Shown here: positions 3,409-24,560 of the stretch, piece after piece | Layout of the letters: every line of letters starts with the position of its first letter | How positions within the stretch are numbered: position 1 is the first letter of the stretch | Made by a program: the position numbers and the translations under genes | The notes under the pieces: model-generated | Told to the model about the DNA's origin: nothing | Databases searched by the model: none | What the model saw: only the letters and a program-made list of their open reading frames with translations | Virus genome (UHGV): UHGV-0187710 | Reading direction: 5' to 3' (one strand) | Origin: a virus | DNA length: 40,954 nucleotides

Positions 3409-3711
3409 TTATAAATTATCGCTGGTTAGCTTTGGTGGAACAGCATAGAGAGGCCCAGGTGAGACATCAAAACGGCGCCAGCGTATATTACAGGTTCTCT
3501 CTTCACCTTTTTTGTGCCAGGCAACGACATCTGCCACTGGCTCGGCGTTCCTACCTGCCAACACCTCATCTACTACCTTCAACATATCCGCGAGAATGTA
3601 AGCTCTGTTCCCGCCGTTTGAGTACTGGGTATCATGCAGTAGGTGTTCACGTATCTGGTGTAGGCGATCGAGTGATACAGAACCGTTCGCCGGGTGGTTG
3701 TTAGTTGTCAT
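3409..3711 (-). CDS. hypothetical phage early protein
   Basis: 100-aa ORF in the leftward early block, 4-bp overlap with the upstream gene. Confidence 0.6.
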   Translation of the reverse strand: MTTNNHPANGSVSLDRLHQIREHLLHDTQYSNGGNRAYILADMLKVVDEVLAGRNAEPVADVVAWHKKGEERTCNIRWRRFDVSPGPLYAVPPKLTSDNL

Positions 3712-4037
3712 GCTGCCCCCCTACGTTGATGGCCCAGTGCGTGACGCGCTTCTATCGGGTCCTCTTCTTCGTATTCACCATTGACGCTTTTCACCATCGC
3801 CACGCAGCATTCGTTGCAGCACCGATAGGACATAAGTTCGCCGTCGAATTTCCACGCCGTACTACGGTGAATTTCATCCTTTAAAATTACGCCAGCGCAA
3901 ATGTGGCATTTGTATTCACCTCGAGAGGTAACGATTTTGTTCGATAGTTCTGTATCGCATGGCGTACCGAAATCACCTTCGAAAAGATCAAAGTCCAGTG
4001 CGTCGTCTAAATCCTGTTTGTTGAGTGAGTTAGTCAT
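3708..4037 (-). CDS. hypothetical Cys-rich (putative zinc-binding) protein
   Basis: ORF with CxxC ... CCxxCC pattern (CHIC ... CCNECC); start chosen at the internal ATG 4037; 8-nt overlap with the upstream gene stop. Confidence 0.55.
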   Translation of the reverse strand: MTNSLNKQDLDDALDFDLFEGDFGTPCDTELSNKIVTSRGEYKCHICAGVILKDEIHRSTAWKFDGELMSYRCCNECCVAMVKSVNGEYEEEDPIEARHALGHQRRGAA

Positions 4038-4374
4038 TCCAGGCCTCCAGCTCATTCTGAATCTCTTCGTCGATTTCGTCATTGGTGGCGTCTTCGTTCA
4101 GATAGGCGTGCGCCTCTTTGAAATACTTGTCGCGGCGTTCGTCATACCAGGCAGAGAACTCAGGCGACCAGGCATGGGTATGTCCGAAAAAATCGACTCT
4201 GGCGTTATCTTCTGCGAGACGCTCAACCATGCAGTAAGCTGTGATCAAACCGCATTCACGGATGTACCCACGCAGGTCGCGCTTGCGCCAGTACGGGCTA
4301 TATTTCGAGTCGCAGCGGCTTTTAAATTCGACAGTCCAGCGACGGATGCAACGTGCGTTCAGTGATTTACTCAT
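4030..4374 (-). CDS. hypothetical phage early protein
   Basis: 114-aa ORF, acidic C-terminus, tightly packed in the leftward operon. Confidence 0.6.
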   Translation of the reverse strand: MSKSLNARCIRRWTVEFKSRCDSKYSPYWRKRDLRGYIRECGLITAYCMVERLAEDNARVDFFGHTHAWSPEFSAWYDERRDKYFKEAHAYLNEDATNDEIDEEIQNELEAWND

Positions 4375-4625
4375 TGAGTTGCTCCCTGTCTGGCTCTATT
4401 CAATAACTGGTTAAACATCATGGTTAGGCTGTTACTGCACCCAAATGGCATATCGTTAACACGGTATGTTGGAATGCCCTTGCGAACACCTGACTTCACG
4501 ATCCGGCCGGTGCCATAGAGTTGCGATAATGCGCCAGCGACCGCGGGTGTCTTTTTGTTCATACCTTTGGCGATTTCACCGCTGGTGGTATTCGGATGAG
4601 CCTGGAGATATTCAAATACGGTCAT
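4371..4625 (-). CDS. small putative DNA-binding protein (winged-helix-like)
   Basis: 84-aa ORF; the start ATG overlaps the upstream stop (ATGA). Confidence 0.6.
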   Translation of the reverse strand: MTVFEYLQAHPNTTSGEIAKGMNKKTPAVAGALSQLYGTGRIVKSGVRKGIPTYRVNDMPFGCSNSLTMMFNQLLNRARQGATQ

Positions 4626-4789
4626 GGCGTTTTACCTTTACGTTCCTGTTCCAGTTGCACCAGAGACTCTTTTAATGCTGCGAACGTAGCGTCCAGTCTG
4701 GTGGCAACTTCGCGCATAAGCGGTGCATGCTTTGGTGGCAGTTCAGCAACGGAGGCAAAAGCCTCCGTAACGAGTTCTTTTACCTTCAT
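4622..4789 (-). CDS. small hypothetical protein (55 aa), missing from the 60-aa-minimum ORF track
   Basis: ORF MKVKELVTEAFASVAELPPKHAPLMREVATRLDATFAALKESLVQLEQERKGKTP; ATGA start/stop overlaps on both sides (coupled with the HD gene and with 4371..4625). Confidence 0.4.
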   Translation of the reverse strand: MKVKELVTEAFASVAELPPKHAPLMREVATRLDATFAALKESLVQLEQERKGKTP

Positions 4790-5325
4790 GCGGCGCATTG
4801 GCGCAGCTCCGCCAGTTCGTTAAAGCGGTTCATGAACAGGCCATAGGATTGACCTGGACGGAGAGGGATAACCTGAACGAGATCAGAGCAGGGAATACCT
4901 TCGAGAATTTCCCACTTCGAACCGTTATCGATTTCCAGATCACGGCGCTCGGTAGCTAACATGGTTAGATCGGCGTATTTCACGACGGCAGATTGCTCAA
5001 GCGGGATACCGAATTTAAAGCGGATAAGACCATCAACATAAGTTTCCATGCGCTGGTAGTCAGGCAGCAAGGCTTTGAGCGGGGCTGGAATATCCTGGCA
5101 ATATGCCTCCGCAGCGTCGTGCATCAACGCTTCAAAGGCGAACTCTGGCGGCACAATCTGGCTTACAAGCACAGAGTGCTGGGCCACGCTGTAGAACTCT
5201 GGCAGATGCCCAGCGAATCGACAGATGTTGGAAAGAGCAGTCGCGATATCCTCAACATCGATATCGTCGATTGTGGCGGTCAGGTAGTTAAATTTTTTAC
5301 CGGATAATGTCTGAATGTAGCTCAT
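4786..5325 (-). CDS. HD-domain phosphohydrolase (YfdR-like)
   Basis: H...HD...E metal-binding pattern (AQHSVLV ... ALMHDAAEAY); start at ATG 5325 with GGAG 6 nt upstream. Confidence 0.75.
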   Translation of the reverse strand: MSYIQTLSGKKFNYLTATIDDIDVEDIATALSNICRFAGHLPEFYSVAQHSVLVSQIVPPEFAFEALMHDAAEAYCQDIPAPLKALLPDYQRMETYVDGLIRFKFGIPLEQSAVVKYADLTMLATERRDLEIDNGSKWEILEGIPCSDLVQVIPLRPGQSYGLFMNRFNELAELRQCAA

Positions 5326-5417
5326 GGTTTTCTCCATATTGGCGCGCTGCACCACGCAGATTTTGGTTGCACGAATCCCTCGCCGGATGGCGATAATTAA
5401 TGGAATTACGCTTCAAT

Positions 5418-5453: not shown

Positions 5454-6281
5454 TTAGGCTTTAAAGTTACCGATGAAAGTTTCCACTGATTCACCTTCGA
5501 ACTTGCTGATCAGCAAATCGCGGAATTCATTGGCGATAGCTTCTTCCTGGGCTTCCAGTTGTACTATGCGCAGTACAAAACGAGGTTCATCACCTGTAAG
5601 CAAACTGTTGCGTAAGCTAAAGCGGCGTTCGCCTAAACCTTCATACGGCACACATTTGAATTCGAACGTTACCGGCATTACGTCTTTGCTGCTGGCTTCA
5701 ATACTCTGCATAAGCGATTTTTTGCCGCTGAAATCGCTGTCTTCATGATCCTGCTGGGTTGCCTGCTGGATAGTGATACGACGAACGGACTGAGCGGCTT
5801 GTGAAATCTGCATCGTTCCACCTTCAGCGTCGAACGCTAAGAGGTAATCGCTCCAGTCTTCCAGCCACTCGGCGATTTGTTTTTGTTTCAGACGTTCACC
5901 GTTGATCTGGAGAAGAGCACGGAATGGTGCGGTCTGTTTTAGGGTGATGGATGCAACATTGTCCGCATGACCGGGGTTATCGAGTGTGCCAATGTTGAAT
6001 ACTGAACGGGCTGTCATATGGTCAGCGTCAATAAAGCAGCGTGCTTTTTCAGTGGCGCTGGCATAGCCTTTTGAATAACGAGCAAAATCTTCAATGCTGG
6101 TCGTGGTCATGGCACCGCGGAAGCGGAAACGCTCCAGAGAAAAACGCTCGAGGCTTTCAATGCCGGTACCCTCTGGCAGTAATGCGGTCGGGCAAGCCAG
6201 GCCATGAATATCATTCAGGTGGTAGCCAGAAAGGACCAGGTCTTTTACCTGCTGAAATGTACCGCTGTCTAACTGGGACAT
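5454..6281 (-). CDS. DUF2303 / YfdQ-like phage protein
   Basis: 275-aa ORF; length, position and sequence character fit the YfdQ-type family that sits next to YfdR-like HD proteins in P22/lambdoid prophages (from memory, unverified). Confidence 0.7.
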   Translation of the reverse strand: MSQLDSGTFQQVKDLVLSGYHLNDIHGLACPTALLPEGTGIESLERFSLERFRFRGAMTTTSIEDFARYSKGYASATEKARCFIDADHMTARSVFNIGTLDNPGHADNVASITLKQTAPFRALLQINGERLKQKQIAEWLEDWSDYLLAFDAEGGTMQISQAAQSVRRITIQQATQQDHEDSDFSGKKSLMQSIEASSKDVMPVTFEFKCVPYEGLGERRFSLRNSLLTGDEPRFVLRIVQLEAQEEAIANEFRDLLISKFEGESVETFIGNFKA

Positions 6282-7838: not shown

Positions 7839-8549
7839 TTACAATTTGTTGTAAGCTATTGATTCGTGTAGTAATGCTTTACCCATAATGTACAATTGAT
7901 CCTGGTTTTCTTCTGTTATGTACCAGTCTTTGTACACCGGGTTATCGGATAAAACTGCAAGTTGCAAGCCCTGCATCTGCAAGCGCTTCACATGGAAGTG
8001 CTGTCCGAATACAAACGCATAAACACCATCAACCTTGAAGTTTCTTACCGAAACATCAAAAAACAACCTGTCTCCAGACTGTATAGTTGGACACATGCTG
8101 TCGCCATCGACAGTCATCACTTTTACGTCTTCCTGAGAACGATTTCCGAAAAGTGAACGAGCGTGCTCGGTGGTGAATTCAATGGCGTGTAGAACCTCAA
8201 CAAATTCAGAGAGCATAAAACATCCAGGACCAGCACTCACAGTAAGGTCGAGAACTTCTACACGATAATTGTCGGCTTTGTGAGTGGGTACATCAACATC
8301 CATTTTTGAAGTTGGACTAAGACCATCCATCCATCCCCGGCTGATTTTCAAAGCATCCTCGATCTGCCGAGCAGCCTGCTCCCCAATATTCCGCTTATTA
8401 GGTTTACCAGCAGGGTAAAGCATCCGAGAAACAACAGTCGGATCAAGTCCTGCCTTTTCAGCAAACTCTCTTTGGGTCTTAAAGCGAGTTACTAACTCCT
8501 GAAGTTTGAGGCGTCGTAACTCGAAGATCTTAGGCGTTTCCGTTTTCAT
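7839..8549 (-). CDS. cI: CI-type prophage repressor (HTH N-terminus, LexA/S24 autocleavage C-terminus)
   Basis: N-terminal HTH-like region (FAEKAGLDPTVVSRML); Ala-Gly cleavage site (VSAGPG), Ser motif GDSM and Lys in HVKRL; divergent from a cro-like gene. Confidence 0.9.
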   Translation of the reverse strand: MKTETPKIFELRRLKLQELVTRFKTQREFAEKAGLDPTVVSRMLYPAGKPNKRNIGEQAARQIEDALKISRGWMDGLSPTSKMDVDVPTHKADNYRVEVLDLTVSAGPGCFMLSEFVEVLHAIEFTTEHARSLFGNRSQEDVKVMTVDGDSMCPTIQSGDRLFFDVSVRNFKVDGVYAFVFGQHFHVKRLQMQGLQLAVLSDNPVYKDWYITEENQDQLYIMGKALLHESIAYNKL

Positions 8550-14752: not shown

Positions 14753-15463
14753 GTGTATGGAGCGCAAAGAAGCATGAATCAACAAGACCTGAATTTTGTA
14801 AGAATAGAATTGCGCCGCGCGCTACCTGACCTCTCTGGGGGAACAAAAGGGCAGCTTGAGGCTTTCAGTGAACACCCACCAGCAGACAAAAATGCCACCC
14901 CGCGCCGTGGAATTCATCTCGTCGAACTCGAAGGAGAGAAGGGGCCTCGCTTTGTTAACTCGCTTTCCGCGCCATTGTATGTATTGGAAACACGCAGCCG
15001 CTGCAGGCCAATGCCGCCGATAAAAGATGCGGAATTTGAGTCCGCGCCGTGGCGTAGGGCAGTGTCCGCGCTTAGTGGATACCAGCAGGCCTGGTTGCGG
15101 TACTGCTACGGTTTTGACCTTAGCTATAAGCACCAGGTGATGATGTGTGAATACGTCTGGAAAACTTATCAGAAATGTCTGGGTGATAATTCCCTTCAGG
15201 AGCGCGTAGTAAAGAAACTGATTGGCCTGGTATGGCTGGCAGGGCAGGAAATTGCCGCAACCAGAAATAATGAAACCTATAAAGACTATGCTGGTGCAGC
15301 GTTGGCCCGCATGGTTAGCGTTGATCGTTCGACATGGTTGCGTGTCTATTCAGGGCACTGGGCTGGGTTAAAGGCCGCTTTTACCCAGCTTGATGAATCT
15401 GCGTTGGCAATGGCTCTTGAATACTATGAGGAAGAAGAAGCCCTCAAAGTGGCAGAAATGTAA
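14753..15463 (+). CDS. late-gene antiterminator, Q-like (assignment mainly positional)
   Basis: 236-aa ORF immediately upstream of a short intergenic region with a terminator and then the lysis region; family not confirmed from sequence. Confidence 0.5.
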   Translation: MYGAQRSMNQQDLNFVRIELRRALPDLSGGTKGQLEAFSEHPPADKNATPRRGIHLVELEGEKGPRFVNSLSAPLYVLETRSRCRPMPPIKDAEFESAPWRRAVSALSGYQQAWLRYCYGFDLSYKHQVMMCEYVWKTYQKCLGDNSLQERVVKKLIGLVWLAGQEIAATRNNETYKDYAGAALARMVSVDRSTWLRVYSGHWAGLKAAFTQLDESALAMALEYYEEEEALKVAEM

Positions 15464-15626: not shown

Positions 15627-16478
15627 ATGAAAATAGATAATCCCGAAAATCCACTTGAACGAAACGATTTTTCGATGGATGACTTCCATCACTACTTAAG
15701 GGAGTTTGATAAAGCTGTATGTGAAGCGAATGCTGTAAGTCAGGGGGTTGGTGTGCGAATGGCTGAGGCTTTTAAAGGGTGGTCTACATACATTTTTTCA
15801 CGAATCTGCATTCATGCTTCAATAATGATTTCCAACGTACCAAAATCAAGATGGGCTAAGCGGGATTATGACTTTTGGGATTTTTCGGCGATTGCACCTC
15901 ATGTAAGAGCGATTCTGGAAGCTGAGTTATTGTTTATGTATTTATCTGAGAATCCAGATTCAACTGAGGAGTGGTCAGCAAAGTTGAATGTCATGCACAT
16001 GAATGATTGTGTAAAGAGAATTGAGTTATTTACATCTAGTGATAATACGAAAGCATTGGATTTTTATCATGAACAAAAAGATATAATAACTGAGAGACTT
16101 AATAACAACCCTGTTTTTTTATCCCTTGAACAAGGAACCAGAAAACGTTGCTTGACTGGAAAAGCGCTTATGATTCCAAATCGAGATGAGTTATTGGTTA
16201 AACTGGGAAAAGATCCAAAGTCATTTAAAATAATGTTCGATTTTTTATCTCATTATACGCATATACTACCTATGTCATATTATAAAATGGAGCCAAACGG
16301 AAGAGGAACTGGTTGTTTTAACAACTATGACTTTGGCTATATGATTATGGGGATGATTATTTGTACTGAATCCTTGACTAAGTGTACAGATAGATTAGTA
16401 GAACTTTTTCCTGATGTTAGACGGTTGCGAAAAGGAACTAAATCAAAATTCACGTTAGGTCCTAAACCTACAAAATAA
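15627..16478 (+). CDS. hypothetical cytoplasmic protein, AT-rich cargo gene between the Q-like gene and the lysis cassette
   Basis: 283-aa ORF, strongly AT-rich compared with neighbours, no recognisable catalytic motif; followed by a hairpin terminator. Confidence 0.65.
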   Translation: MKIDNPENPLERNDFSMDDFHHYLREFDKAVCEANAVSQGVGVRMAEAFKGWSTYIFSRICIHASIMISNVPKSRWAKRDYDFWDFSAIAPHVRAILEAELLFMYLSENPDSTEEWSAKLNVMHMNDCVKRIELFTSSDNTKALDFYHEQKDIITERLNNNPVFLSLEQGTRKRCLTGKALMIPNRDELLVKLGKDPKSFKIMFDFLSHYTHILPMSYYKMEPNGRGTGCFNNYDFGYMIMGMIICTESLTKCTDRLVELFPDVRRLRKGTKSKFTLGPKPTK

Positions 16479-16505
16479 CAATGAGTCGCTTGCTGCTATT
16501 TTAAA

Positions 16506-16530
16506 GGCTTCCAAATGGAAGTCTTTTATA
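16506..16530 (+). terminator. putative terminator after the 15627..16478 cargo gene
   Basis: stem ggcttcc / ggaagtc with a 4-nt loop followed by ttttata. Confidence 0.45.
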
Positions 16531-16696
16531 ATTTCAGGTTTCGCAAATTATACTTATCTTCACATTTTCATAATAGCGCATAAGCCAGCCCCCCCTCCAT
16601 CAACCACAGCGCCATACGAACTATCGGAGGTGAGGCTAAATTAGTAATCGTTCTTACCTGCACAGGTGCATAAAAATCAGCCTAAAATGCGAGTTT

Positions 16697-17359
16697 TTAT
16701 GAAGAGAGCAGCATGACTTTTTCTTTTGCGGGCGAAGGTGACTGCTCTTTCAAAGGGAAAATTATAAATGCTATAAATGCAGTAAATAATACTATGAAAG
16801 CTAGCACTGTAACTTTCCTTGAAGATGATAGGGCTTTGTTATATTCCTTGGCTATTTTGTTCGTTATATGGATCTTAGTGCTATTTATTTCATCTTTTAG
16901 TATGGATAATTTATTTATAAATTCCTGTGTTTCTTCTCGAGAGTAAAGTTCTGAAGCATCTCTTGGGGTTTCATGTGGATGCCGAGTATAACCAAGTATT
17001 TGTGGTATTAAATTACCATGCGATTGAACTACAGATTCATATTTCTTATAGCAAGCATTATCAAAAAATCTCATTCTTATGCTAAGTTCTCTGAGTTTGT
17101 CAACGTCTAGAGAAACTTGTTCGTTGGCAATAATTAAATCTCCGCGGTTTAATGTATTCTTGTGTTGAAAAATTAGTAAAAGCCATTCTGTATTATTGTA
17201 AAGCTTTTCAAGATTGGCATGTATATCAAGTCCGAGTTTTTCATATGCGGATAATTTGACCTCTTTTTCCTTTGCAGAAAGAGAAGATGAATAAGCCAGT
17301 AATCCGCTTATTATGGCAACAATAAATGTTCCTATAATGGTTAAGGTATTCGAGTCCAT
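16697..17359 (-). CDS. hypothetical membrane protein with hydrophobic segments at both termini, AT-rich cargo gene
   Basis: start at internal ATG 17359 (MDSNTLTIIGTFIVAIISGLLAY...); C-terminal VTVLAFIVLFTAFIAFIIFPL; helical/coiled middle; convergent with 15627..16478. Confidence 0.6.
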   Translation of the reverse strand: MDSNTLTIIGTFIVAIISGLLAYSSSLSAKEKEVKLSAYEKLGLDIHANLEKLYNNTEWLLLIFQHKNTLNRGDLIIANEQVSLDVDKLRELSIRMRFFDNACYKKYESVVQSHGNLIPQILGYTRHPHETPRDASELYSREETQEFINKLSILKDEINSTKIHITNKIAKEYNKALSSSRKVTVLAFIVLFTAFIAFIIFPLKEQSPSPAKEKVMLLSS

Positions 17360-17466
17360 TGTATTCTTCAAAAGTTGGTCAAAAATATATTGTAATATTT
17401 TAATGTATAAAATCAATCATTTCCCCTCATTCTGAGAGGACTCCCAGCAACAAAGAGGGGGGCTAA

Positions 17467-17853
17467 ATGTCCGATCCGATTTCCGGTTCTGGGATGGCTG
17501 GTGGTGTCCTGACGGGGGCCAGCGTCTATGGATTTCTGTCCGGAACCGATTACGGCGTGGTGTTTGGCGCATTTGCCGGGGCTGTATTTTACATTGCAAC
17601 CGCAGCGGATCTAAGTGCAGCGCGCCGACTGGCATATTTTCTGGTGTCGTATATTGCGGGGATCCTTTGTTCCGGGCTGGTGGGTTCAAAGCTGGCTCAG
17701 GCTACCGGCTACAGTGATAAACCACTGGATGCCATTGGCGCCGTAATCGTTTCTGCTTTAGCCGTCAAAATCCTGACATTCCTGAATAATCAGGATGTCG
17801 GCTCGCTGGTGGCGCTGATAACGCGCCGGGGAGGTTCAGGTGGTACAAAATGA
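17467..17853 (+). CDS. putative holin (multi-pass small membrane protein)
   Basis: 128-aa ORF with several hydrophobic helices and charged C-terminus, first gene of the lysis cassette. Confidence 0.6.
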   Translation: MSDPISGSGMAGGVLTGASVYGFLSGTDYGVVFGAFAGAVFYIATAADLSAARRLAYFLVSYIAGILCSGLVGSKLAQATGYSDKPLDAIGAVIVSALAVKILTFLNNQDVGSLVALITRRGGSGGTK

Positions 17854-18121
17854 CCCATCGGCAACTTTTAATGCATTGCTTTGTGCTGGGGTAGTGTTAA
17901 CCCTGATGTTTTACCGTCGCGGCGACTCGCGACATCGACCGTGGATATCTCGCTTAGCGTGGCTGCTTACGGTCATCTACAGCGCCGTTCCGCTGGCGTA
18001 TCTGTGCGGTATTTACCCGTACTCATCATGGGCCACTATCGGGGCCAACTTTATTTTCCTGTCCGTGCTGGTCGCCGTAAGAGGCAACGTGGCACGTCTG
18101 GTTGATCATCTGAGGCACTAA
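17840..18121 (+). CDS. second small lysis-cassette membrane protein (holin/antiholin-like)
   Basis: 93-aa hydrophobic ORF overlapping the previous gene end and ending at the endolysin start. Confidence 0.5.
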   Translation: MVQNDPSATFNALLCAGVVLTLMFYRRGDSRHRPWISRLAWLLTVIYSAVPLAYLCGIYPYSSWATIGANFIFLSVLVAVRGNVARLVDHLRH

Positions 18122-18735
18122 TGAACCAATCACAATTTCAGCAGGCGGCTGGTATCAGCGCCGGGCTTTCTGCGCGCTGGTTTCCGCACATTGACGCGGC
18201 AATGAAAGAGTTTGGCATTACAGCTACGAACGATCTGGCTATGTTCATCGCCCAGGTTGGGCATGAGTCTGCTGGCTTTACCTCGCTGGTGGAAAGCTTC
18301 AACTACTCGGTAGAGGGGCTGAAGAAAACCTTTGGTAAACGGCTTACTCCTTATCAGTGTGAAATGCTGGGTCGTGTCGATGGTAAGCAGGTGGCCCACC
18401 AGCCGCAAATAGCCAATCTGGTTTATGGTGACCGCATGGGGAATAACAGCCAGGGTGACGGCTGGAAATATCGCGGTCGCGGCCTGCTGCAAATCACGGG
18501 TCGTGAGAACTACACCAAATGCGGCACGGCGCTGAAACTTGACCTTATCAGTACGCCAGAATTGCTAACGCAAGAGCGACATGCGGCTCGTTCGGCTGCG
18601 TGGTACTTCACGTTACGCGGTTGCCTGATGTATTCGGGTGACGTGGCACGCGTTACGCAGATTATTAACGGCGGACAGAACGGCATTAAAGACCGCCGTG
18701 AACGTTACGCCAAAGCTAAAGCTGCACTGGTGTGA
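18121..18735 (+). CDS. endolysin, glycoside hydrolase family 19 (chitinase-like lysozyme)
   Basis: FIAQVGHESAGF ... YGDRMGNNSQGDGWKYRGRGLLQITGRENY motifs typical of GH19 phage lysozymes. Confidence 0.9.
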   Translation: MNQSQFQQAAGISAGLSARWFPHIDAAMKEFGITATNDLAMFIAQVGHESAGFTSLVESFNYSVEGLKKTFGKRLTPYQCEMLGRVDGKQVAHQPQIANLVYGDRMGNNSQGDGWKYRGRGLLQITGRENYTKCGTALKLDLISTPELLTQERHAARSAAWYFTLRGCLMYSGDVARVTQIINGGQNGIKDRRERYAKAKAALV

Positions 18736-18742
18736 GGTCAGT

Positions 18743-19012
18743 ATGGGGCTTGAAATGATTATCGGCCTGGTTGTTGCTGTGCTGGCTGCAATTGCAGGTG
18801 CTTTTGGGCTGGGCAAATCACGCGGTACCAGTATCGCTGAAACAAAAGCGGACCAACAACGCACTGAAGAACGTGCAATAGCTATTGAAGCGGTTGCAGA
18901 ACGCCGGGTAGAAACAACAAAAGGAGCCAGGGATGTACAACAGACTGTTAACCATATGCCTGATGACGCTGCTGATCGCGAGCTGCGCAAAAACTGGACA
19001 CGTAAGGATTGA
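18743..19012 (+). CDS. i-spanin (Rz-like)
   Basis: N-terminal transmembrane helix (MIIGLVVAVLAAIAGAFGL) then a charged helical periplasmic region; GAGG 5 nt upstream of the ATG; directly after the endolysin. Confidence 0.7.
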   Translation: MGLEMIIGLVVAVLAAIAGAFGLGKSRGTSIAETKADQQRTEERAIAIEAVAERRVETTKGARDVQQTVNHMPDDAADRELRKNWTRKD

Positions 19013-19154
19013 GGTTATTGACACCGGCTGCGATTGGGTAAAACCCATCTACGGCACTGCTCATGATTGGGAAGTGCTGGACAGGCAGACCAAGAAAGAC
19101 ATTCTTATGCATAACAAAGTGTGGATGTCAAACTGTGGCTCTATAACTTATTGA
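18933..19154 (+). CDS. o-spanin (Rz1-like lipoprotein), overlapping the i-spanin 3' end in another frame
   Basis: signal peptide with lipobox LIASC; overlapped spanin architecture. Confidence 0.65.
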   Translation: MYNRLLTICLMTLLIASCAKTGHVRIEVIDTGCDWVKPIYGTAHDWEVLDRQTKKDILMHNKVWMSNCGSITY

Positions 19155-19805
19155 TTTTGTTTTTTTGTTGTCTACCATATCAGGCAATGTGAAGGCATAT
19201 AGAAGAAATACTTCGGTGAAACCAATCATTTCTTGAGCATCTTCTTTTGAAAATTCTTCATCAGAATGAACTGCTCCATTGGAATCGATTCGAACTATAT
19301 GTGCCCATTCCCTCATTTGATCTGTAATCAGTCCCTTAGCATGCAACATAGAAATCCGTTTAACCAATTTTTCATCTTTTGAGTCATTTCCCAGTAACTC
19401 CCGTGTAGCAATGTCCAAGACTTTACGGCAAAGCATAACGGATGTGTCGAAACGACAGCGCCCTAAGTTGTCTTTTGCTTCTATGAAAGCCATAGCAGCA
19501 CGTGGCGGAGTGTGTTCGGGGGCGTTAAGGAGGGTGGGTTTCGGGATGATATCAATCAACTGGTACTCAGTATTTCCAGGAATGATTACGTTTACATCAT
19601 TATTTTGCCTAGATTTTGCACGAGGTAAATAACCACCGGGATTATTCATTTTTACAATAGCAATACCTGATTGAAAACAGCTTCGACAACAAAATGCAAT
19701 ATTAACTAAAGGCCCGGCGTTGATACGCAGTTCTGCCCATCCTTCAAGGACAGCATTTTCCCTCAGACAATGTGGGCAAGTGATATCGAAAGTGAGAATT
19801 CGCAT
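19128..19805 (-). CDS. zinc-ribbon protein with DUF4145-like (HEPN-superfamily-like) C-terminal domain; candidate abortive-infection/defence cargo
   Basis: start at internal ATG 19805; N-terminal CPHC ... CCRSC; C-terminal FIEAKDNLGRCRFDTSVMLCRKVLDIATRELL ... HIVRIDSNGAVHSDEEFSKEDAQE pattern recalled as DUF4145; opposite strand to the lysis genes. Confidence 0.7.
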   Translation of the reverse strand: MRILTFDITCPHCLRENAVLEGWAELRINAGPLVNIAFCCRSCFQSGIAIVKMNNPGGYLPRAKSRQNNDVNVIIPGNTEYQLIDIIPKPTLLNAPEHTPPRAAMAFIEAKDNLGRCRFDTSVMLCRKVLDIATRELLGNDSKDEKLVKRISMLHAKGLITDQMREWAHIVRIDSNGAVHSDEEFSKEDAQEMIGFTEVFLLYAFTLPDMVDNKKTKSISYRATV

Positions 19806-20550
19806 GACTCTACTCCATACATTAAAAGAAATTGAAAATGAATTACACAATGCACAACGACCTGAGTCTACACTCCTTCAACGATATGAAGTATCGAATG
19901 AGATTAAAAAAAAGGAGTTTGTAGTCGCTTTGATCGGTAAACTGATAGAATTGGACCGCCGTCTCTATGTCACATCATTGAAGCCTTAGTTTCAATTTTA
20001 CCGATTTATCGCTTAAGGGGTAGGACTTCAACACTACTAAGTGAGCATTGCAGCAGGCATTCAGGGGAATGCTGTGACAGTAGTTAGCTAGGGTAAACCG
20101 TTTGCGCCTGGGGATTTTACTTTGCGACGGAAAATTAAAAAACTATATGATTTCTTATCCCACTAGGATGTCTGCGGACTACTACTGACTGTTTAGGCTA
20201 TTACGAGGGGCTCAAACTCAACGTCTGGCATCAACGCAGAACTGAAAAAGTCGCCATGAATGTGGTTACGGTATTTGGTGGGATATAAACGTACCTTCAT
20301 TTCTAAGCTTGATAATCACCTTTGTCCGAATTGCCTACGCGATAGTCATGTAGTTTTAGTCATAACCGTTTACCCTATTGATGTCAAGATAAATTGGATA
20401 ACACTGATGAATCGAACCTCTAAATCCTTTGATGGGCCACTCATAGCTGACTGGTTCAAAAAAGTGTTATCAATGGTATGATAAGTTGAGATGAAAGGTG
20501 TAAATGAACTATAATAATTCAACAGTTAATCTGAGAAAAATGGATTATGT

Positions 20551-20820
20551 ATGTCGAATGTAAAAAAAATAGATGCTATAGTTCAAAATTTATTTGAATT
20601 CAGAGATGCTACAGGTGAACTTACGGATAAAAATATTGTTTTAATACAAAAAATCATAACGAACTTACCTGACTATGCTGGTAAGGATCCATATGAATTT
20701 TATTCATCATTTTCTGAAGATATTAATGAGTCGCTCAAAGCAATTGCCAATTATCATAAGGCACATGCTAAATACATTAATGCCCTCGATAAATTAGCAG
20801 AGCTTAGGTCGGAGGGGTAA
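20551..20820 (+). CDS. hypothetical small soluble protein, gene 1 of an AT-rich two-gene cassette
   Basis: 89-aa ORF, very AT-rich, predicted all-helical; 2-nt gap to the next gene. Confidence 0.55.
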   Translation: MSNVKKIDAIVQNLFEFRDATGELTDKNIVLIQKIITNLPDYAGKDPYEFYSSFSEDINESLKAIANYHKAHAKYINALDKLAELRSEG

Positions 20821-20822
20821 TA

Positions 20823-21200
20823 ATGGCTACGGAAGATATTCAGGCTTTGTTATCTAAAGTTAATGCGTTAAGATTTGAAGATAAAAGAATAGAGAAGGAA
20901 ACAGGAGAGATTGAAAATGAAATTCAGGCTCAATTTCTTCGTGATGGTAAAACAAGGAGTACATTAACCATAACATTTATGAGAGGCTTTTTTGGTCTTA
21001 TCGTTTTTTCTTTTATATTTGTGATAGCTTATAACTATTGCGCAGTGCAATGGGTACTTCAATTACAAAGCAAAGGGCTCATGGAGGCTTCTAAAAGTAT
21101 CGCACTACTTGAGTTAGATAAGGTGTTATCTATTATGGTTAGTGCGTTAGGAACATCTCTTGGGTTTATAATTGGCTATTATTTTAAAGACAAAAAATAA
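20823..21200 (+). CDS. hypothetical small membrane protein, gene 2 of the AT-rich cassette
   Basis: 125-aa ORF: charged helical N-terminus then two hydrophobic segments (FFGLIVFSFIFVIAY and VLSIMVSALGTSLGFIIGYYF); followed by a strong terminator. Confidence 0.6.
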   Translation: MATEDIQALLSKVNALRFEDKRIEKETGEIENEIQAQFLRDGKTRSTLTITFMRGFFGLIVFSFIFVIAYNYCAVQWVLQLQSKGLMEASKSIALLELDKVLSIMVSALGTSLGFIIGYYFKDKK

Positions 21201-21273
21201 ATAATTTAATTTTACATTGCTATTTATGTTTTGCTTTTAAGATTTTTAACTTTCTAGATGTAGAGTTATTGTT

Positions 21274-21305
21274 AAAGCACTGGTATTTGCCAGTGCTTTT
21301 TTATT
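21274..21305 (+). terminator. rho-independent terminator after the AT-rich two-gene cassette
   Basis: 10-bp stem aaagcactgg / ccagtgcttt with loop tatttg followed by ttttatt. Confidence 0.65.
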
Positions 21306-21599
21306 AAAATCCGCGGATTAATGACGGCAATCATGAATACTCCTCCAAAGACTGATCCAACGATACGGGTGTATAAGTCACACTTGTTTAATCTGTGATT
21401 GATGGCACTATAATTTATGTTGCACAACATAAACTGCCGATGGAGGGAATTGAGTGCTGAGCATGTCAGACATAAGTGTGTTGTCGAAGGTCTCCTCAGG
21501 CATGGTTTCTGCATAACGTCGACACTTGAAAGCCTCCATAATGACAATAAAGTATAAGTATTATCATTATTAATTGTCACTTGCCGTTGCGACATGCTT

Positions 21600-21611
21600 G
21601 GGCGGCGACCG
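21600..21611. other. candidate cosN cohesive-end site
   Basis: GGGCGGCGACCG matches the lambda 12-nt cohesive end GGGCGGCGACCT at 11 of 12 positions; sits inside an imperfect inverted repeat cttgggcgg cga ccgcctaag, about 100 bp upstream of the HNH and terminase genes. Confidence 0.5.
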
Positions 21612-21700
21612 CCTAAGTTCTCTTTATAAATGAGAAGTTCCCGCTAGCGACCGTTTCTGATTCTTTTTTTCTACTAAGTTTGTATCAAATAAACAGGATA

Positions 21701-22069
21701 ATGCCGATGCCAGCACGAGCAAAGCGTCCATGCCGGCACAAGGGCTGTGCGGCAGTTACCAACGATGCCAGTGGCTATTGTGATCAACACCGACAGCGGC
21801 ATGCTGGTGATGGCTGGCGTAACTATCAGGCAGGAAAGAGCAGGCAGGAACGTGGATATGGGCGGACCTGGGAAATTAAACGGGTGCGTATCCTTCAGCG
21901 TGATAAGTACCTGTGTCAGAACCATCGCCGGCAGAAGATTGCAAAAAAGGCGACCAGCGTTGACCACATCATTCCAAAAGCTCATGGCGGTACTGATGAC
22001 GATTTCAATCTTGAGTCGTTGTGCTGGGACTGCCACAGAGCGAAGACGGCAAGAGAGCGTATCCGATGA
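21701..22069 (+). CDS. HNH endonuclease (packaging-associated)
   Basis: Cys/His-rich ORF with CQNHRRQKIAKKATSVDHIIPKAHGGTDDDFNLESLCWDCHRAKT; directly upstream of terminase genes. Confidence 0.85.
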   Translation: MPMPARAKRPCRHKGCAAVTNDASGYCDQHRQRHAGDGWRNYQAGKSRQERGYGRTWEIKRVRILQRDKYLCQNHRRQKIAKKATSVDHIIPKAHGGTDDDFNLESLCWDCHRAKTARERIR

Positions 22070-22404: not shown

Positions 22405-22839
22405 ATGGCTGGTGGAATTCGATCATCAGGCGGAGGGCGAAAGCCCGTTTTACCTTCAGGACAAAAAAGCAAACTGACCAGAATCGCACCTCCCGCTGAG
22501 TTAATGGGGGAGAATGCAATAAGACTGTGGAAAACCCAAAGTAAAATTCTGATCGAAAGAGGCGTGTTTGAACTGGAGGATGCGCCCCTGCTTCTGGCTT
22601 ACTGCAATGCCTTCCATTTAATGCTTGAAGCTGAAAAATTGCTCTCGTCAAGCCTGACGACCGAAAGTGAAATGGGGGGATTAAAGAAACATCCCGCCGT
22701 TAACATCAGAAATGATTCTGTTTCCCAGATAGCCCGTCTTGGCTCGCTTCTGGGGTTGGATCCACTCAGCCGAATTAGGATGCGTGGCAGTGGAAATGAT
22801 CCGGACGACGACGGGAATGAATTTGATGAGTTTGACTGA
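22405..22839 (+). CDS. terminase small subunit (P27-type)
   Basis: 144-aa ORF with basic N-terminus and central LLLAYCNAFHLMLEAEK motif; acidic tail; ATGA-coupled to the large subunit. Confidence 0.85.
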   Translation: MAGGIRSSGGGRKPVLPSGQKSKLTRIAPPAELMGENAIRLWKTQSKILIERGVFELEDAPLLLAYCNAFHLMLEAEKLLSSSLTTESEMGGLKKHPAVNIRNDSVSQIARLGSLLGLDPLSRIRMRGSGNDPDDDGNEFDEFD

Positions 22840-24560
22840 TGGCTACATATCCGAACGTCAATGCAGCGAACCAGTATGCAAGAGATGTTGTTGGCGGGAA
22901 GATCCTTGCTTGTCAGTTAACTGTGCTTGCCTGTCAAAGACACCTTGATGATTTGGAACGTGCGAAGGATCCTGCCTGGCCTTACCGGTTTGATAAAAAC
23001 AAGGCCGAGCGATTTTTGCGCTTTGCTCAGAAGATGCCTCATACGGCCGGTGAATGGGCCAGGAAGAAACTACGAATAGAATTTGAGCCCTGGCAAAAGT
23101 TTGCCCTTGGTGTGCCATTTGGATGGGTTAATAAGAAGTCCGGATTCCGGCGTTTTTCTGAAATATATATTGAGGTGCCCAGGAAAAATGGGAAATCCGC
23201 AATTGCAGCTGCCGTTGGTAATTATATGTTTTGCGCCGATGGTGAACATGGTGCAGAAGTGTACTGTGGCGCCACTACTGAAAAACAAGCCTGGAAAGTC
23301 TTCTCTCCCGCTCTACAAATGGTAAAAAAACTCCCGGCATTGCGACAAAAATACTCAGTCAAACCCTGGGCGAAGAAAATGACCCGTCCGGATGGCTCTG
23401 TTTTTGCGCCAGTCATCGGCGATCCTGGTGACGGCGATTCCCCTTCATGTGCAATTATTGATGAATATCACGAGCATCAGACTGATGCACTTTATACAAC
23501 GATGACTACCGGGATGGGGGCAAGGGAGCAGCCTGTTACTCTGATTATTACTACAGCGGGTTATGACATTACTTCGCCCTGTTACGAGAAGCGTGTGCAG
23601 ATAGTGGAAATTCTCCGCCGTAACCGGACAGGAGAAGAAAACGAGACAATATTTGGCATTATATACGGTCTGGATGACGATGATGACTGGACCAGGCCCG
23701 AAGCGCTGATTAAAGCAAATCCCAACTTTGGTGTTTCTGTTAAAGAGCATTTTCTTCGGGCGAAGCAGTTACTGGGAATATCCAATCCCAGCCAGACTAA
23801 CAAAATTCTGACCAAGCACTTTAACCGGTGGGTAAGTGCAAAAACGGTTTTTTATGACCTGCAAAGATGGATGGCTGCTGCGGATAAAAACCTTAAATTA
23901 TCTGATTTTGTTGATGAGGATTGCTGGCTGGGTATTGATCTGGCCTCGAAAGTAGACCTGAATGCCGTAGTGCCAGTGTTCAGGAGAGAGGTTGCTGGTA
24001 TAACCCATTTTTACTGTGTGGGGCCGCTGTTCTGGGCGCCTGAAGATACAATTTATTCACCAGATCCCACGCTGAAAACCATTTCTGAACGTTACCAGTC
24101 ATTTGTGAAACAGGGGGTATTGATACCTACTGAAGGGGCTGAGGTGGATTATCGGTTAATTTTTGAGTCAATTCTTCAGTTACGCCAGCAGGTTAAAATT
24201 GTCCAGTGCCCGATAGATCCTTACGGGGCAACATCATTGCGCCATCTGCTTGAAGAGGAGGGGCTGGAATCCGTTGAGATCAGGCAAAATTTTACACATA
24301 TGAGTGATCCAATGCGTGAAATTGAGGCGGCGCTGGCATCAGGACGCTTTCATCATGACGGTAACCCTATCATGAACTGGTGCATCCAGAATGTTATAGG
24401 GCGTTACTTACCAGGAAGCGATGACATTGTTCGCCCAGGGAAGGAGAGAAAGCAAAACAAAATAGATGGCGCGGTAGGACTAATGATGGGAGTCGGGCGA
24501 GCCATGCTGAACGGAACTGTCAGTAAATCGGCTTATGATGAGGAAGATATTACATGTTGA
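22839..24560 (+). CDS. terminase large subunit
   Basis: 573-aa ORF following the small subunit, with ATPase-like N-terminal region and nuclease-like C-terminal region. Confidence 0.95.
   Translation: MATYPNVNAANQYARDVVGGKILACQLTVLACQRHLDDLERAKDPAWPYRFDKNKAERFLRFAQKMPHTAGEWARKKLRIEFEPWQKFALGVPFGWVNKKSGFRRFSEIYIEVPRKNGKSAIAAAVGNYMFCADGEHGAEVYCGATTEKQAWKVFSPALQMVKKLPALRQKYSVKPWAKKMTRPDGSVFAPVIGDPGDGDSPSCAIIDEYHEHQTDALYTTMTTGMGAREQPVTLIITTAGYDITSPCYEKRVQIVEILRRNRTGEENETIFGIIYGLDDDDDWTRPEALIKANPNFGVSVKEHFLRAKQLLGISNPSQTNKILTKHFNRWVSAKTVFYDLQRWMAAADKNLKLSDFVDEDCWLGIDLASKVDLNAVVPVFRREVAGITHFYCVGPLFWAPEDTIYSPDPTLKTISERYQSFVKQGVLIPTEGAEVDYRLIFESILQLRQQVKIVQCPIDPYGATSLRHLLEEEGLESVEIRQNFTHMSDPMREIEAALASGRFHHDGNPIMNWCIQNVIGRYLPGSDDIVRPGKERKQNKIDGAVGLMMGVGRAMLNGTVSKSAYDEEDITC

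What the first reader, a model, noticed from the sequence alone, without database searches (positions are those of the whole stretch)
20486..21305. Self-contained AT-rich two-gene cassette (small helical protein plus small membrane protein) immediately upstream of cos
Two tightly linked genes (89 aa soluble, 125 aa with two hydrophobic segments) are far more AT-rich than the surrounding phage genes. They are preceded by a long non-coding region carrying a promoter-like TTGAGA, 18 nt, TATAAT (20486..20515) and followed by a strong terminator (21274..21305). This looks like an autonomous horizontally acquired module in the slot between lysis genes and cos. A small cytoplasmic protein paired with a small membrane protein fits superinfection-exclusion, abortive-infection or toxin/antitoxin-like modules, but I recognise no known family.
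Basis: partly seen in the sequence, partly recalled or inferred. Interest (0 to 1): 0.62.

Follow-up and report, generated by a model that had tools for sequence, protein, structure and literature searches.

The report
Two-gene membrane moron in prophage
This is a real, AT-rich, self-transcribed pair of small genes (a soluble helical protein plus a two-pass inner-membrane protein) carried as cargo between the lysis and DNA-packaging genes of a lambda-like prophage; the pair moves as a unit through many prophages and matches no described family, so it is a good but unproven candidate for a membrane switch that protects the lysogen against other phages.

Summary
Gene A (20551-20820, 89 aa, soluble, helical) and gene B (20823-21200, 125 aa, two transmembrane helices) form a 32% GC unit inside 47-50% GC phage DNA. 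Upstream lies the only 11/12 sigma-70 consensus match in the 41-kb window. Downstream lies a strong intrinsic terminator.

The host element is a lambdoid prophage integrated next to icd. The cassette sits after the lysis genes and before a lambda-like cosN 11-mer, HNH and terminase.

The pair behaves as one mobile unit. In 34 of 37 distinct loci a full-length A-family gene abuts or overlaps B. The cassette follows at least five unrelated endolysin types and precedes three terminase types. It also occupies the HK97-gp15 slot and a Q-to-lysozyme slot. Related phages have the slot empty or filled with other cargo. This fits the classical definition of a moron.

B belongs to an unannotated superfamily of 233 clusters reaching Planctomycetota and candidate-phyla bacteria, always with a small upstream ORF. 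It has a variable cytoplasmic helix and an invariant glycine-zipper TM2 (LGTSLGFIIGYYFK).

No homology was found to Pfam, NCBIfam, PADLOC, PDB, BFVD, RexAB, HK97 gp15 or holins.

The function is inferred, not shown. Most likely it is a prophage-expressed, Rex-like or toxin-antitoxin-like membrane exclusion module.

The parts
20486..20515 (+). Sigma-70 promoter-like element TTGAGA-18 nt-TATAAT; the predicted transcription start is about 28 nt upstream of the ATG of gene A
   Evidence: 11/12 match; it is the only match of at least 11/12 in the whole window, and the chance per 90 nt of local composition is about 0.002. Function as a promoter was not tested.
20551..20820 (+). Gene A: an 89-aa soluble, all-helical protein with motifs L..FR near the N-terminus and Y(N/H)K..xxY..A..KL near the C-terminus; the proposed cytoplasmic partner or regulator of B
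   Evidence: family of at least 33+34 homologues, all next to B. AlphaFold2 model with 3 helices, pLDDT 66; dN/dS 0.10-0.44; phrog_21707, E 5e-8.
20811..20817 (+). Shine-Dalgarno GGAGGGG for gene B, embedded in the 3' end of gene A (A's stop codon is at 20818-20820, B's ATG at 20823); this suggests translational coupling
   Evidence: Read directly. In the other loci, the end of A lies from 35 nt inside B to 13 nt before B's ATG.
20823..21200 (+). Gene B: a 125-aa inner-membrane protein. It has a variable N-terminal cytoplasmic helix (residues 1-45), TM1 (about 50-75), a loop of about 25 aa, TM2 (about 100-121) carrying the invariant motif LGTSLGFIIGYYFK (G110-x3-G114-x3-G118), and a basic C-terminal tail
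   Evidence: alignment A2; identity is 19% over residues 1-40, 59% over 41-125 and 100% over 111-120. AlphaFold2 pLDDT 78, helix 3-83 plus helix 98-122; hydropathy and flanking charges; phrog_20796, E 8e-49; 233 clusters; dN/dS 0.02-0.05 in the TM part.
21274..21305 (+). Intrinsic terminator: an 11-bp GC-containing stem, a 4-nt loop and a T-run
   Evidence: About 20 of 31 related loci have an unrelated hairpin plus T-run within 200 nt of B's stop codon.
20154..20475 (+). Left boundary of the cassette: a decayed HNH endonuclease pseudogene (three reading frames, internal stop codons)
   Evidence: blastn 67-70% identity to E. coli prophage HNH genes; tblastn covers HNH residues 4-92, E 5e-9.
21600..21610 (+). 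Right-hand context: a lambda-like cosN 11-mer GGGCGGCGACC, just upstream of the intact HNH gene (21680-22069), TerS (22405-22839) and TerL (22839-24560)
   Evidence: The identity to the lambda cohesive end is from my own knowledge.

Best explanation
The interval is a classical phage 'moron': an independent, horizontally mobile transcription unit (promoter 20486-20515, gene A, gene B, terminator 21274-21305). It sits in the variable slot between the lysis cassette and cos/HNH/terminase of a lambdoid prophage integrated at icd.

Shown here:
- A and B are genuine genes under purifying selection.
- They are inherited together and are probably translationally coupled.
- B has the composition of an N-in/C-in two-pass inner-membrane protein. 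Its cytoplasmic N-terminal helix is poorly conserved. Its second transmembrane helix carries an invariant GxxxGxxxG glycine zipper.
- A is a small soluble helical protein. In some genera it carries its own N-terminal membrane anchor.

Inferred:
- The cassette is transcribed from its own promoter in the repressed prophage.
- A binds the N-terminal helix of B at the cytoplasmic face of the membrane.
- B is a membrane effector that oligomerises through TM2.
- Together they act as a small two-component phage-exclusion module, working like lambda RexA/RexB or a toxin-antitoxin-type abortive-infection switch. A, or the A-B contact, senses a cytoplasmic cue from an infecting phage. B then perturbs the membrane (ion leak or depolarisation), which aborts the infection and protects the lysogen population.
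For: Moron anatomy:
- GC is 0.32, against flanks of 0.47-0.50.
- The promoter match is unique in the window and is followed by a terminator.
- Related phages with the same lysis cassette have the slot empty (Citrobacter phage Chris1) or filled with glycosyltransferase cargo (Escherichia phage CharmingMan).
- The definition of a moron is taken from PMC3594210.

Mobility as a unit:
- 34 of 37 distinct loci carry a full-length A-family gene that abuts or overlaps B.
- Upstream neighbours include Rz, GH24-type lysozyme, GH19, GH108 and M15 endolysins and at least 7 holin families.
- Downstream neighbours are Terminase_4/TerL, Terminase_2/Terminase_6N or GpA-type terminases.
- The pair also occurs after the tail-assembly chaperone in Proteus and Providencia, the same slot as the HK97 gp15 moron, and between Q and lysozyme in Morganella.
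- It is AT-rich (0.31-0.40) in every host, whatever the flank GC (0.37-0.56).

Real genes: dN/dS is 0.10-0.44 for A, 0.06-0.25 for the B N-terminus and 0.02-0.05 for the B transmembrane part.

Membrane effector:
- Two transmembrane segments are flanked by positive charges on the N- and C-terminal sides.
- The AlphaFold2 model is a helical hairpin with a long N-terminal helix.
- TM2 is invariant and contains G110/G114/G118. That glycine zippers drive channel-like oligomers, as in pinholin S21, is from my own knowledge.

Specificity on the cytoplasmic side: the variable parts are A and the cytoplasmic N-terminus of B, whereas the periplasmic loop is more conserved. Providencia and Xenorhabdus A variants are membrane-anchored, which places A at the membrane.

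Lysogen-benefit context:
- The pair is found only in temperate or prophage settings: 1 of 50,697 isolate phages, and that one is temperate.
- The same slot in this window also holds a DUF4145 gene with a weak PADLOC PD-T7-4 match.
- A distant member sits beside a type I restriction-modification system plus an AAA_13 ATPase.
- Two loci have AAA_21/RloB genes next to the pair.
Against: - No expression or phenotype data exist for this cassette.
- There is no hit to any PADLOC model, no homology to RexA/RexB and no structural match.
- The promoter consensus is strong in the window but weak or absent upstream of many relatives. Only about 8 of 31 have a match of at least 9/12 within 25-50 nt of the ATG. 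Some copies may therefore depend on late-operon read-through.
- In Morganella, B is intact while A is reduced to its last 40 or so codons. This is hard to reconcile with B being a lethal toxin that needs A.
- dN/dS is below 1 everywhere, so the variability of A and the B N-terminus may reflect low constraint rather than an arms race.
- No charge complementarity between A and the B N-terminus was seen.
- The frequent position directly after lysis genes is also compatible with a lysis-related role.
- Several distant members sit among housekeeping genes rather than in defence islands.
Confidence: 0.4

Rival explanations
1. Superinfection exclusion at the DNA-entry step. B sits in the inner membrane and blocks genome injection by incoming phages, as HK97 gp15, P22 SieA or T4 Imm do. 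A is an assembly or stability factor.
For: B is a small inner-membrane protein encoded on a moron. [quoted passage not shown] The pair occurs only in temperate contexts.
Against: There is no homology to HK97 gp15 (hhalign probability 0.2). Known entry blockers are single proteins, whereas here a soluble partner is almost always kept. The periplasm-facing loop is relatively conserved and the cytoplasmic parts are the variable ones. This is the opposite of what is expected if specificity lay in contacts with incoming tail or tape-measure proteins.
Confidence: 0.2
2. Accessory lysis regulator. B is a holin-like or pinholin-like two-TM protein and A is its cytoplasmic antiholin (compare T4 holin T and RIII). 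Both would be expressed late from the Q-dependent operon to tune lysis timing of the phage itself.
For: Most copies lie immediately downstream of Rz/Rz1 in the late operon. In Morganella, B lies directly upstream of lysozyme/Rz, the position a holin would occupy. The N-in/C-in two-TM topology with a glycine-zipper TM2 resembles class II holins such as pinholin S21 (that resemblance is from my own knowledge). Promoters are weak in many relatives.
Against: The window already has a complete lysis set: Phage_holin_8, Phage_holin_3_7, a GH19 endolysin and Rz/Rz1. The pair accompanies at least 7 unrelated holin families and at least 5 endolysin types, so a specific holin partner is unlikely. It also occurs in the tail-gene slot and in non-phage chromosomal loci of Planctomycetota and candidate-phyla bacteria. 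There is no hit to any Pfam or PHROG holin family (best is phrog_7045, E 0.36). It has its own promoter, terminator and a deviant GC content. It is absent from virulent phages in a collection of 50,697 genomes.
Confidence: 0.15
3. A selfish addiction module or host-fitness cargo unrelated to phages. Either it is a toxin-antitoxin pair (B a membrane toxin, A a labile protein antitoxin) that stabilises the prophage, or it is a membrane-stress or envelope-fitness factor for the lysogen.
For: The small upstream gene overlapping a downstream gene is typical type II toxin-antitoxin geometry. The module is patchy, mobile and AT-rich across phyla, including tiny candidate-phyla genomes and housekeeping neighbourhoods. 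It is rare within a species: 2 of 5,426 complete E. coli genomes.
Against: A has no recognisable DNA-binding (HTH, RHH or AbrB) domain, which type II antitoxins usually carry for autoregulation. B persists without an intact A in Morganella. No toxin or antitoxin Pfam or PADLOC family matches.
Confidence: 0.15
4. Not a functional unit: chance ORFs in AT-rich junk DNA next to a decaying HNH pseudogene.
For: The neighbouring DNA is decayed (HNH remnant). Neither protein has an annotated family.
Against: Both ORFs are conserved as proteins across Enterobacterales with saturated synonymous divergence and dN/dS of 0.02-0.44. B has 132 close homologues and a 233-cluster superfamily. Ten residues of TM2 are invariant.
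Confidence: 0.01

Closest known systems
Phage morons as defined for HK97/HK022 (prototype: the HK97 gene 15 moron)
   Same: It is extra DNA relative to related phages. Its GC content differs from its neighbours. It has its own promoter-like site and terminator. It lies between late genes of a temperate lambdoid phage and encodes a small inner-membrane protein. [quoted passage not shown]
   Different: It has two genes instead of one. There is no sequence relationship to gp15, a 62-aa protein with one TM (hhalign probability 0.2). Expression from the repressed prophage and exclusion activity are untested.
Lambda RexA/RexB abortive-infection (exclusion) system
   Same: It is prophage-borne, with a two-gene order of soluble protein then small polytopic inner-membrane protein. 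The logic is plausibly the same: a cytoplasmic sensor gates a membrane effector. This is a similarity in how it might work only.
   Different: There is no homology (hhalign probability 0.3 and 0.2) and no PADLOC Rex hit. The proteins are much smaller: 89 aa against 279 aa for RexA, and 125 aa with 2 TM against 144 aa with 4 TM for RexB (the RexB TM count is from my own knowledge; lengths are). The location is the late region, not the immunity region.
Class II holins/pinholins with antiholins (phage 21 S21; T4 holin T with cytoplasmic antiholin RIII)
   Same: B has an N-in/C-in two-TM topology with a GxxxGxxxG-type zipper in TM2. It has a small soluble helical partner. It is frequently located beside lysis genes. 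The pinholin and RIII properties are from my own knowledge.
   Different: There is no hit to any Pfam or PHROG holin or antiholin family. The window already has two holin-family genes. The pair is independent of holin type, has its own transcription signals, and occurs outside phages.
Prophage two-gene soluble-plus-membrane defence pairs in mycobacteriophages (Butters gp30/gp31, Sbash gp30/gp31), recalled from memory
   Same: A small cytoplasmic protein is paired with a small membrane protein, both expressed from a prophage as accessory cargo, and they defend against heterotypic phages.
   Different: This comparison was not tested here because the sequences were not at hand. The host phylum is different, and no PADLOC match was found.
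PHROG families phrog_20796 (B) and phrog_21707 (A)
   Same: B matches phrog_20796 end to end (E 8e-49). A matches phrog_21707 weakly (E 5e-8). The genes have therefore been seen before in phage genomes.
   Different: Both PHROGs are annotated 'unknown function'. No paper in the searchable library mentions the signature motif.

Membership tests
Phage moron (Hendrix/Juhala definition, as summarised in PMC3594210) | Extra DNA that is absent from otherwise related phages at the same position | tested here: met
   The same holin_8/holin_3_7/GH19/Rz lysis cassette is followed by an almost empty slot in Citrobacter phage Chris1, by glycosyltransferase cargo in Escherichia phage CharmingMan, by A-B alone in K. 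aerogenes prophages and Klebsiella phage P7641, and by DUF4145 plus A-B in the window.
Phage moron (Hendrix/Juhala definition, as summarised in PMC3594210) | Nucleotide composition differs from that of the surrounding genes | tested here: met
   GC is 0.32 against 0.47-0.50 in the flanks of the window. The pair is 0.31-0.40 in all 39 distinct loci, with flanks of 0.37-0.56.
Phage moron (Hendrix/Juhala definition, as summarised in PMC3594210) | Own promoter | tested here: inconclusive
   The window has an 11/12 consensus match 35 nt upstream of A, unique in 41 kb. Only about 8 of 31 relatives have a match of at least 9/12 at 25-50 nt. Activity was not measured.
Phage moron (Hendrix/Juhala definition, as summarised in PMC3594210) | Own terminator | tested here: met
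   A hairpin plus T-run lies at 21274-21305. About 20 of 31 relatives have an unrelated hairpin plus T-run after B.
Phage moron (Hendrix/Juhala definition, as summarised in PMC3594210) | Expressed from the repressed prophage | not testable with these tools
   This needs RNA-seq or a reporter assay in the lysogen.
Lambda RexAB exclusion system | Sequence homology to RexA and RexB | tested here: not met
   hhalign of A2 against RexB gives probability 0.3, and A5 against RexA gives 0.2. PADLOC gives no hit.
Lambda RexAB exclusion system | Infection-triggered membrane depolarisation that aborts the infection | not testable with these tools
   This needs membrane-potential assays during phage challenge.
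HK97 gp15-type superinfection exclusion protein | Sequence homology to gp15 | tested here: not met
   hhalign probability 0.2.
Holin / pinholin (any Pfam or PHROG holin family) | Match to a holin family profile | tested here: not met
   Pfam gives no hit at E up to 1. The best PHROG holin match is phrog_7045 at E 0.36, below significance.
Holin / pinholin (any Pfam or PHROG holin family) | Small membrane protein with at least one TMD, encoded next to the endolysin and required for lysis | tested here: inconclusive
   A two-TM N-in/C-in topology is predicted. In the window B lies 2 kb downstream of the endolysin, beyond Rz/Rz1 and a DUF4145 gene. It is directly upstream of lysozyme only in Morganella. 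A requirement for lysis was not tested.
Type II toxin-antitoxin module | Two small, tightly linked or overlapping genes, with the antitoxin first | tested here: met
   The junction ranges from a 35-nt overlap to a 13-nt gap, and A is always upstream.
Type II toxin-antitoxin module | Antitoxin with a DNA-binding domain (HTH/RHH/AbrB) or membership of a known toxin or antitoxin family | tested here: not met
   Pfam, NCBIfam and PADLOC give no hit for A or B. The A model is a plain helical bundle.
Type II toxin-antitoxin module | The toxin gene is not maintained without its antitoxin | tested here: not met
   Morganella loci keep an intact B with A truncated or fused so that only about 40 C-terminal codons remain.
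Known anti-phage defence systems (PADLOC-DB v2.0.0) | Match to any defence-protein model | tested here: not met
   Neither A nor B matches any family at E up to 1. Newer DefenseFinder models were not available.

The most novel reading that the evidence does not exclude
A-B is the enterobacterial, prophage-borne branch of an ancient, phylum-spanning and completely unannotated two-gene membrane module. A small helical protein is paired with a two-TM protein carrying the signature motif LGF(I/V)IGYYFK, in at least 233 clusters at 50% identity. On this reading the module is a new minimal abortive-infection or toxin-antitoxin family. The glycine-zipper TM2 would form a gated ion leak, and the small partner would set its trigger specificity.
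Probability: 0.3. Interest if true: 0.7.

Novelty: new variant of a known kind. Interest (0 to 1): 0.5.

Why it matters
Morons in the lysis-to-terminase slot are a recognised reservoir of lysogenic-conversion and anti-phage genes, and most of their cargo is still uncharacterised. This cassette is a clean test case for four reasons:
- It has only 214 codons in two genes.
- It has its own transcription signals.
- B has a sharply defined invariant membrane motif next to variable cytoplasmic parts.
- Its superfamily reaches far beyond phages.

If it proves to be a defence or toxin-antitoxin module, it would add one of the smallest known sensor-plus-membrane-effector systems. It would also give a sequence signature for annotating several hundred orphan gene families. 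If it proves to be a lysis regulator, it would be a new holin-like class that is independent of the canonical holin.

Tried and rejected
Family and structure searches that gave nothing:
- Pfam, NCBIfam and PADLOC scans of A and B gave no hits.
- PDB sequence-profile searches gave only noise: rhodopsin and designed helical bundles at E of at least 0.02.
- Foldseek of the B model found nothing at E up to 0.001 against BFVD or PDB.
- The afdb50 library was unavailable.
- The A model was too uncertain (pLDDT 66) to use for a fold search.

DNA and RNA searches that gave nothing:
- Megablast of the cassette found no match in 50,697 phages or 5,426 E. coli genomes.
- Rfam and tRNA scans of the region found nothing.
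- No flanking direct or inverted repeats suggest transposition. A 14-nt inverted repeat inside the HNH remnant does not fold better than shuffled sequence (z -0.9).

Analyses that were uninformative:
- Distance-matrix comparison (mirror-tree) of A against the B N-terminus was saturated, with Spearman 0.24 against 0.44 for the TM part.
- Charge complementarity between A and the B N-terminus was not significant (rho -0.25, p 0.18).
- Homology between enterobacterial A and the small upstream ORFs of distant B homologues could not be shown (hhalign probability 0.7). I therefore claim only conservation of position and size there.

Homology ideas rejected: RexA/RexB and HK97 gp15.

Literature: full-text search for the motif, and searches of two defence-screen papers, gave nothing.

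Not analysed: seven IMG/VR loci that matched by tblastn but not by my motif filter (L043, L047, L054, L060-62, L065).
Full report
**1. What is in the sequence**

The window is a lambdoid prophage integrated beside icd. Its features, in order, are:
- icd (Iso_dh) at 33-1283
- a lambda-type integrase at 2010-3215 (-)
- an S24 repressor at 7839-8549 (-)
- antiterminator Q at 14753-15463
- two holin-family genes at 17467-18121
- a GH19 endolysin at 18121-18735
- Rz/Rz1-like ORFs at 18638-19154
- an HNH gene at 21680-22069, TerS at 22405-22839 and TerL at 22839-24560

A is 20551-20820 (89 aa) and B is 20823-21200 (125 aa). They are 2 nt apart, and a GGAGGGG ribosome-binding site for B lies inside the end of A.

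GC falls to 0.29-0.34 across the pair, against about 0.50 on both sides.

The promoter-like site TTGAGA-18-TATAAT (20486-20515) is the only match of at least 11/12 to the sigma-70 consensus on either strand of the whole window. A site this good is expected in about 0.2% of 90-nt stretches of the same composition.

A clean intrinsic terminator follows at 21274-21305.

Two refinements apply. First, the 'long non-coding region' upstream is largely a decayed HNH endonuclease gene (about 20154-20475). That this is the lambda cohesive-end sequence is from my own knowledge.

**2. The two proteins**

A is soluble (maximum 19-residue hydropathy 0.31). It is predicted to be all-helical with three helices, at modest confidence (pLDDT 66).

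B has two hydrophobic stretches, at about residues 50-75 and 100-121. Positive charges flank them on the N-terminal side and in the C-terminal KDKK tail, which gives an N-in/C-in topology. AlphaFold2 (pLDDT 78) models one long helix (3-83) that runs from the cytoplasm into TM1, then a short loop, then TM2 (98-122).

Across 33 homologues, the first 40 or so residues of B are barely alignable. R45, T49, F52, F56, Y70, N71, W77 and L81 are invariant, as is the whole block G110-T-S-L-G-F-I-I-G-Y-Y-F-K122.

Mean pairwise identities over 31 pairs are:

| Region | Identity |
|---|---|
| A | 25% |
| B residues 1-40 | 19% |
| B residues 41-125 | 59% |
| B residues 111-120 | 100% |

G110, G114 and G118 form a GxxxGxxxG glycine zipper. 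That such zippers drive channel-like homo-oligomers, for example in pinholin S21, is from my own knowledge.

Both genes are under purifying selection. dN/dS is 0.10-0.44 for A, 0.06-0.25 for the B N-terminus and 0.02-0.05 for the B membrane part. They are real genes, and the variability is not demonstrably positive selection.

**3. The pair is one mobile unit**

B has 132 close homologues, all 'hypothetical', in Enterobacterales prophages. It matches phrog_20796, a family of unknown function.

I collected loci from encoding contigs, GTDB genomes and IMG/VR. Of 37 distinct loci with upstream DNA, 34 have a full-length A-family gene (89-133 aa). Its end lies from 35 nt inside B to 13 nt before B's start codon. 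All of these partners join a single HMM family.

The three exceptions are Morganella remnant prophages. There, only the last 40 or so codons of A survive, free or fused to an unrelated N-terminus, while B is intact.

Providencia and Xenorhabdus A proteins carry a conserved extra N-terminal transmembrane segment. This places A at the membrane.

The pair is AT-rich (0.31-0.40) in every host, whatever the flank GC (0.37-0.56).

**4. Contexts**

Pfam scans of the three nearest genes on each side show what lies next to the pair.
- Upstream: Rz, Phage_lysozyme, GH19, GH108 and M15 endolysins, and at least seven holin families.
- Downstream: HNH plus Terminase_4/TerL, Terminase_2/Terminase_6N, or GpA-type terminases.

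The cassette is therefore tied to a slot, not to a particular lysis or packaging system.

It also appears in three other settings:
- between the tail-assembly chaperone and a cargo island ahead of the tape-measure gene in Proteus and Providencia, which is the slot of the HK97 gene 15 moron
- between Q and lysozyme in Morganella
- inside a prophage on a Klebsiella plasmid

Phages sharing the window's lysis cassette differ at this slot. It is nearly empty in Citrobacter phage Chris1 and holds a glycosyltransferase in Escherichia phage CharmingMan.

The pair is rare. It occurs in 2 of 5,426 complete E. coli genomes and in 1 of 50,697 isolate phages, the temperate Klebsiella phage P7641.

These properties satisfy the published definition of a moron: extra DNA, deviant GC, own promoter and terminator (PMC3594210). 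Expression in the lysogen is the one criterion I cannot test.

About 20 of 31 relatives also have an unrelated hairpin plus T-run after B. Good promoter matches are seen in only about 8 of 31.

**5. A wider superfamily**

An exhaustive profile search found 233 clusters at 50% identity with E up to 1e-3. Nearly all are stand-alone proteins of 100-150 aa that keep the pattern TRS..F-(TM1)-YN...LGF(I/V)IGYYFK. None has a Pfam domain.

Members occur in an alphaproteobacterial MAG, Pirellulales, Anaerohalosphaera, Dojkabacteria, Parcubacteria and unnamed metagenomic contigs. In 9 of 9 loci examined, a 75-109-aa ORF lies directly upstream on the same strand.

One of these loci adjoins a type I restriction-modification system plus an AAA_13 ATPase. 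Others lie among housekeeping genes.

I could not show that these upstream ORFs are homologous to enterobacterial A (hhalign probability 0.7). The conservation is therefore of position and size only.

**6. Comparison with known systems**

There is no homology to lambda RexA/RexB, to HK97 gp15, to any holin family, to any PADLOC defence model, to NCBIfam, to PDB sequences or to BFVD or PDB folds. No paper in the searchable library contains the motif.

The cassette works most like two known kinds, by analogy only:
- a Rex-like two-component exclusion system, with a soluble partner plus a small membrane effector, both prophage-borne
- a pinholin/antiholin pair, with two transmembrane helices and a glycine-zipper TM2

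It is a member of neither family.

**7. Most likely mechanism and rivals**

I favour a prophage-expressed membrane module in which A controls or senses through the variable cytoplasmic helix of B, and B acts through its invariant TM2. The outcome would be phage exclusion of the abortive-infection or toxin-antitoxin-like type (confidence 0.4). Four points support this:
- the moron anatomy
- the restriction to temperate elements
- the fact that the variable surfaces are cytoplasmic while the periplasmic loop and TM2 are conserved
- defence-type neighbours in the same slot (DUF4145 with a weak PD-T7-4 match, AAA_21/RloB, a type I restriction-modification system)

Three points count against it:
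- there are no expression or phenotype data
- promoters are weak in many relatives
- B survives without A in Morganella

The rivals are:
- superinfection exclusion at DNA entry (0.2), disfavoured by the conserved periplasmic loop and the near-obligatory soluble partner
- a lysis-timing accessory (0.15), disfavoured by independence from holin type, presence outside phages, own transcription signals and absence from virulent phages
- an addiction or host-fitness module (0.15)
- non-functional ORFs (0.01), refuted by the conservation data

**8. Verdict**

It is a textbook moron whose two-gene cargo is an undescribed but widespread family. The function is inferred, not shown. Interest is moderate (0.5). 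Unknown moron cargo is common, but this one is compact, sharply defined and directly testable.

Noticed in passing
window 20154-20475 (+): The 'non-coding' DNA upstream of the cassette is a frameshifted, stop-containing remnant of a terminase-associated HNH endonuclease gene. It aligns to residues 4-92 of an E. coli prophage HNH across three reading frames. An intact HNH gene lies at 21680-22069. This suggests that the cassette, cos and the intact HNH arrived by recombination next to an older HNH copy.
   Followed up: yes
window 19128-19850 (-): A second AT-rich cargo gene lies in the same slot. It encodes a 225-240-aa DUF4145 protein with an N-terminal CxxC...CxxC motif. It matches PHROG 1305 ('DNA binding protein', E 1.5e-43) and matches PADLOC PD-T7-4 weakly (E 0.002). 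It is a possible defence gene.
   Followed up: partly
window 15627-17416: Another AT-rich island (GC about 0.35) lies between antiterminator Q and the holin. It holds a 283-aa ORF (weak DUF5677 match, E 2e-4) and a 239-aa ORF on the minus strand with no family hit. In related prophages this slot holds other cargo: M78 peptidase plus DUF4411, a KAP NTPase, or DUF6650.
   Followed up: partly
window 1396-2013 (+): An AT-rich 205-aa ORF with no significant family hit lies between icd and the integrase gene, at the prophage edge.
   Followed up: no
window 21596-21618 (+): An exact lambda-like cosN 11-mer GGGCGGCGACC (21600-21610) lies inside a GC-rich hairpin, about 70 nt upstream of the HNH gene. 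It was found only in this prophage lineage among the 70 loci held at the time of that search.
   Followed up: partly
window 21272-21595 (-): A minus-strand promoter-like site (GTGACA-18-TATACT, 21580 to 21551, 10/12 match) and a 107-aa ORF with no family hit run towards the cassette terminator. The terminator may act in both directions, or there may be a small antisense or divergent transcript.
   Followed up: no
L019-L021, L052, L053, L063 (Xenorhabdus/Providencia), A genes about 5481-5990: The A homologues in these genera are 131-138 aa and carry a conserved N-terminal transmembrane segment (IFFPLxAxWxxWK). The 'soluble' partner is therefore membrane-anchored in some lineages.
   Followed up: partly
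L013-L016 (Morganella morganii), 3580-5378: In a remnant prophage, A is reduced to its C-terminal 40 or so codons, free in L014 and fused to an unrelated N-terminus of about 190 aa in L013, L015 and L016. B is intact and lies directly upstream of a lysozyme fragment and Rz, the position a holin would occupy.
   Followed up: partly
L069 1-5537 (metagenomic contig SRR30597345_31706): A distant B homologue (178 aa), with a 94-aa upstream ORF, lies immediately downstream of a type I restriction-modification hsdS / AAA_13 ATPase / hsdM cluster. This looks like a defence-island context outside any prophage.
   Followed up: partly
L025 5569-5811 (Dojkabacteria MAG): Here the small ORF upstream of the B homologue looks like a ribbon-helix-helix protein (MKGKLAVTLPRNLTRKIEDI...). 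It would be the only partner resembling a classical antitoxin. This was judged by eye only.
   Followed up: no
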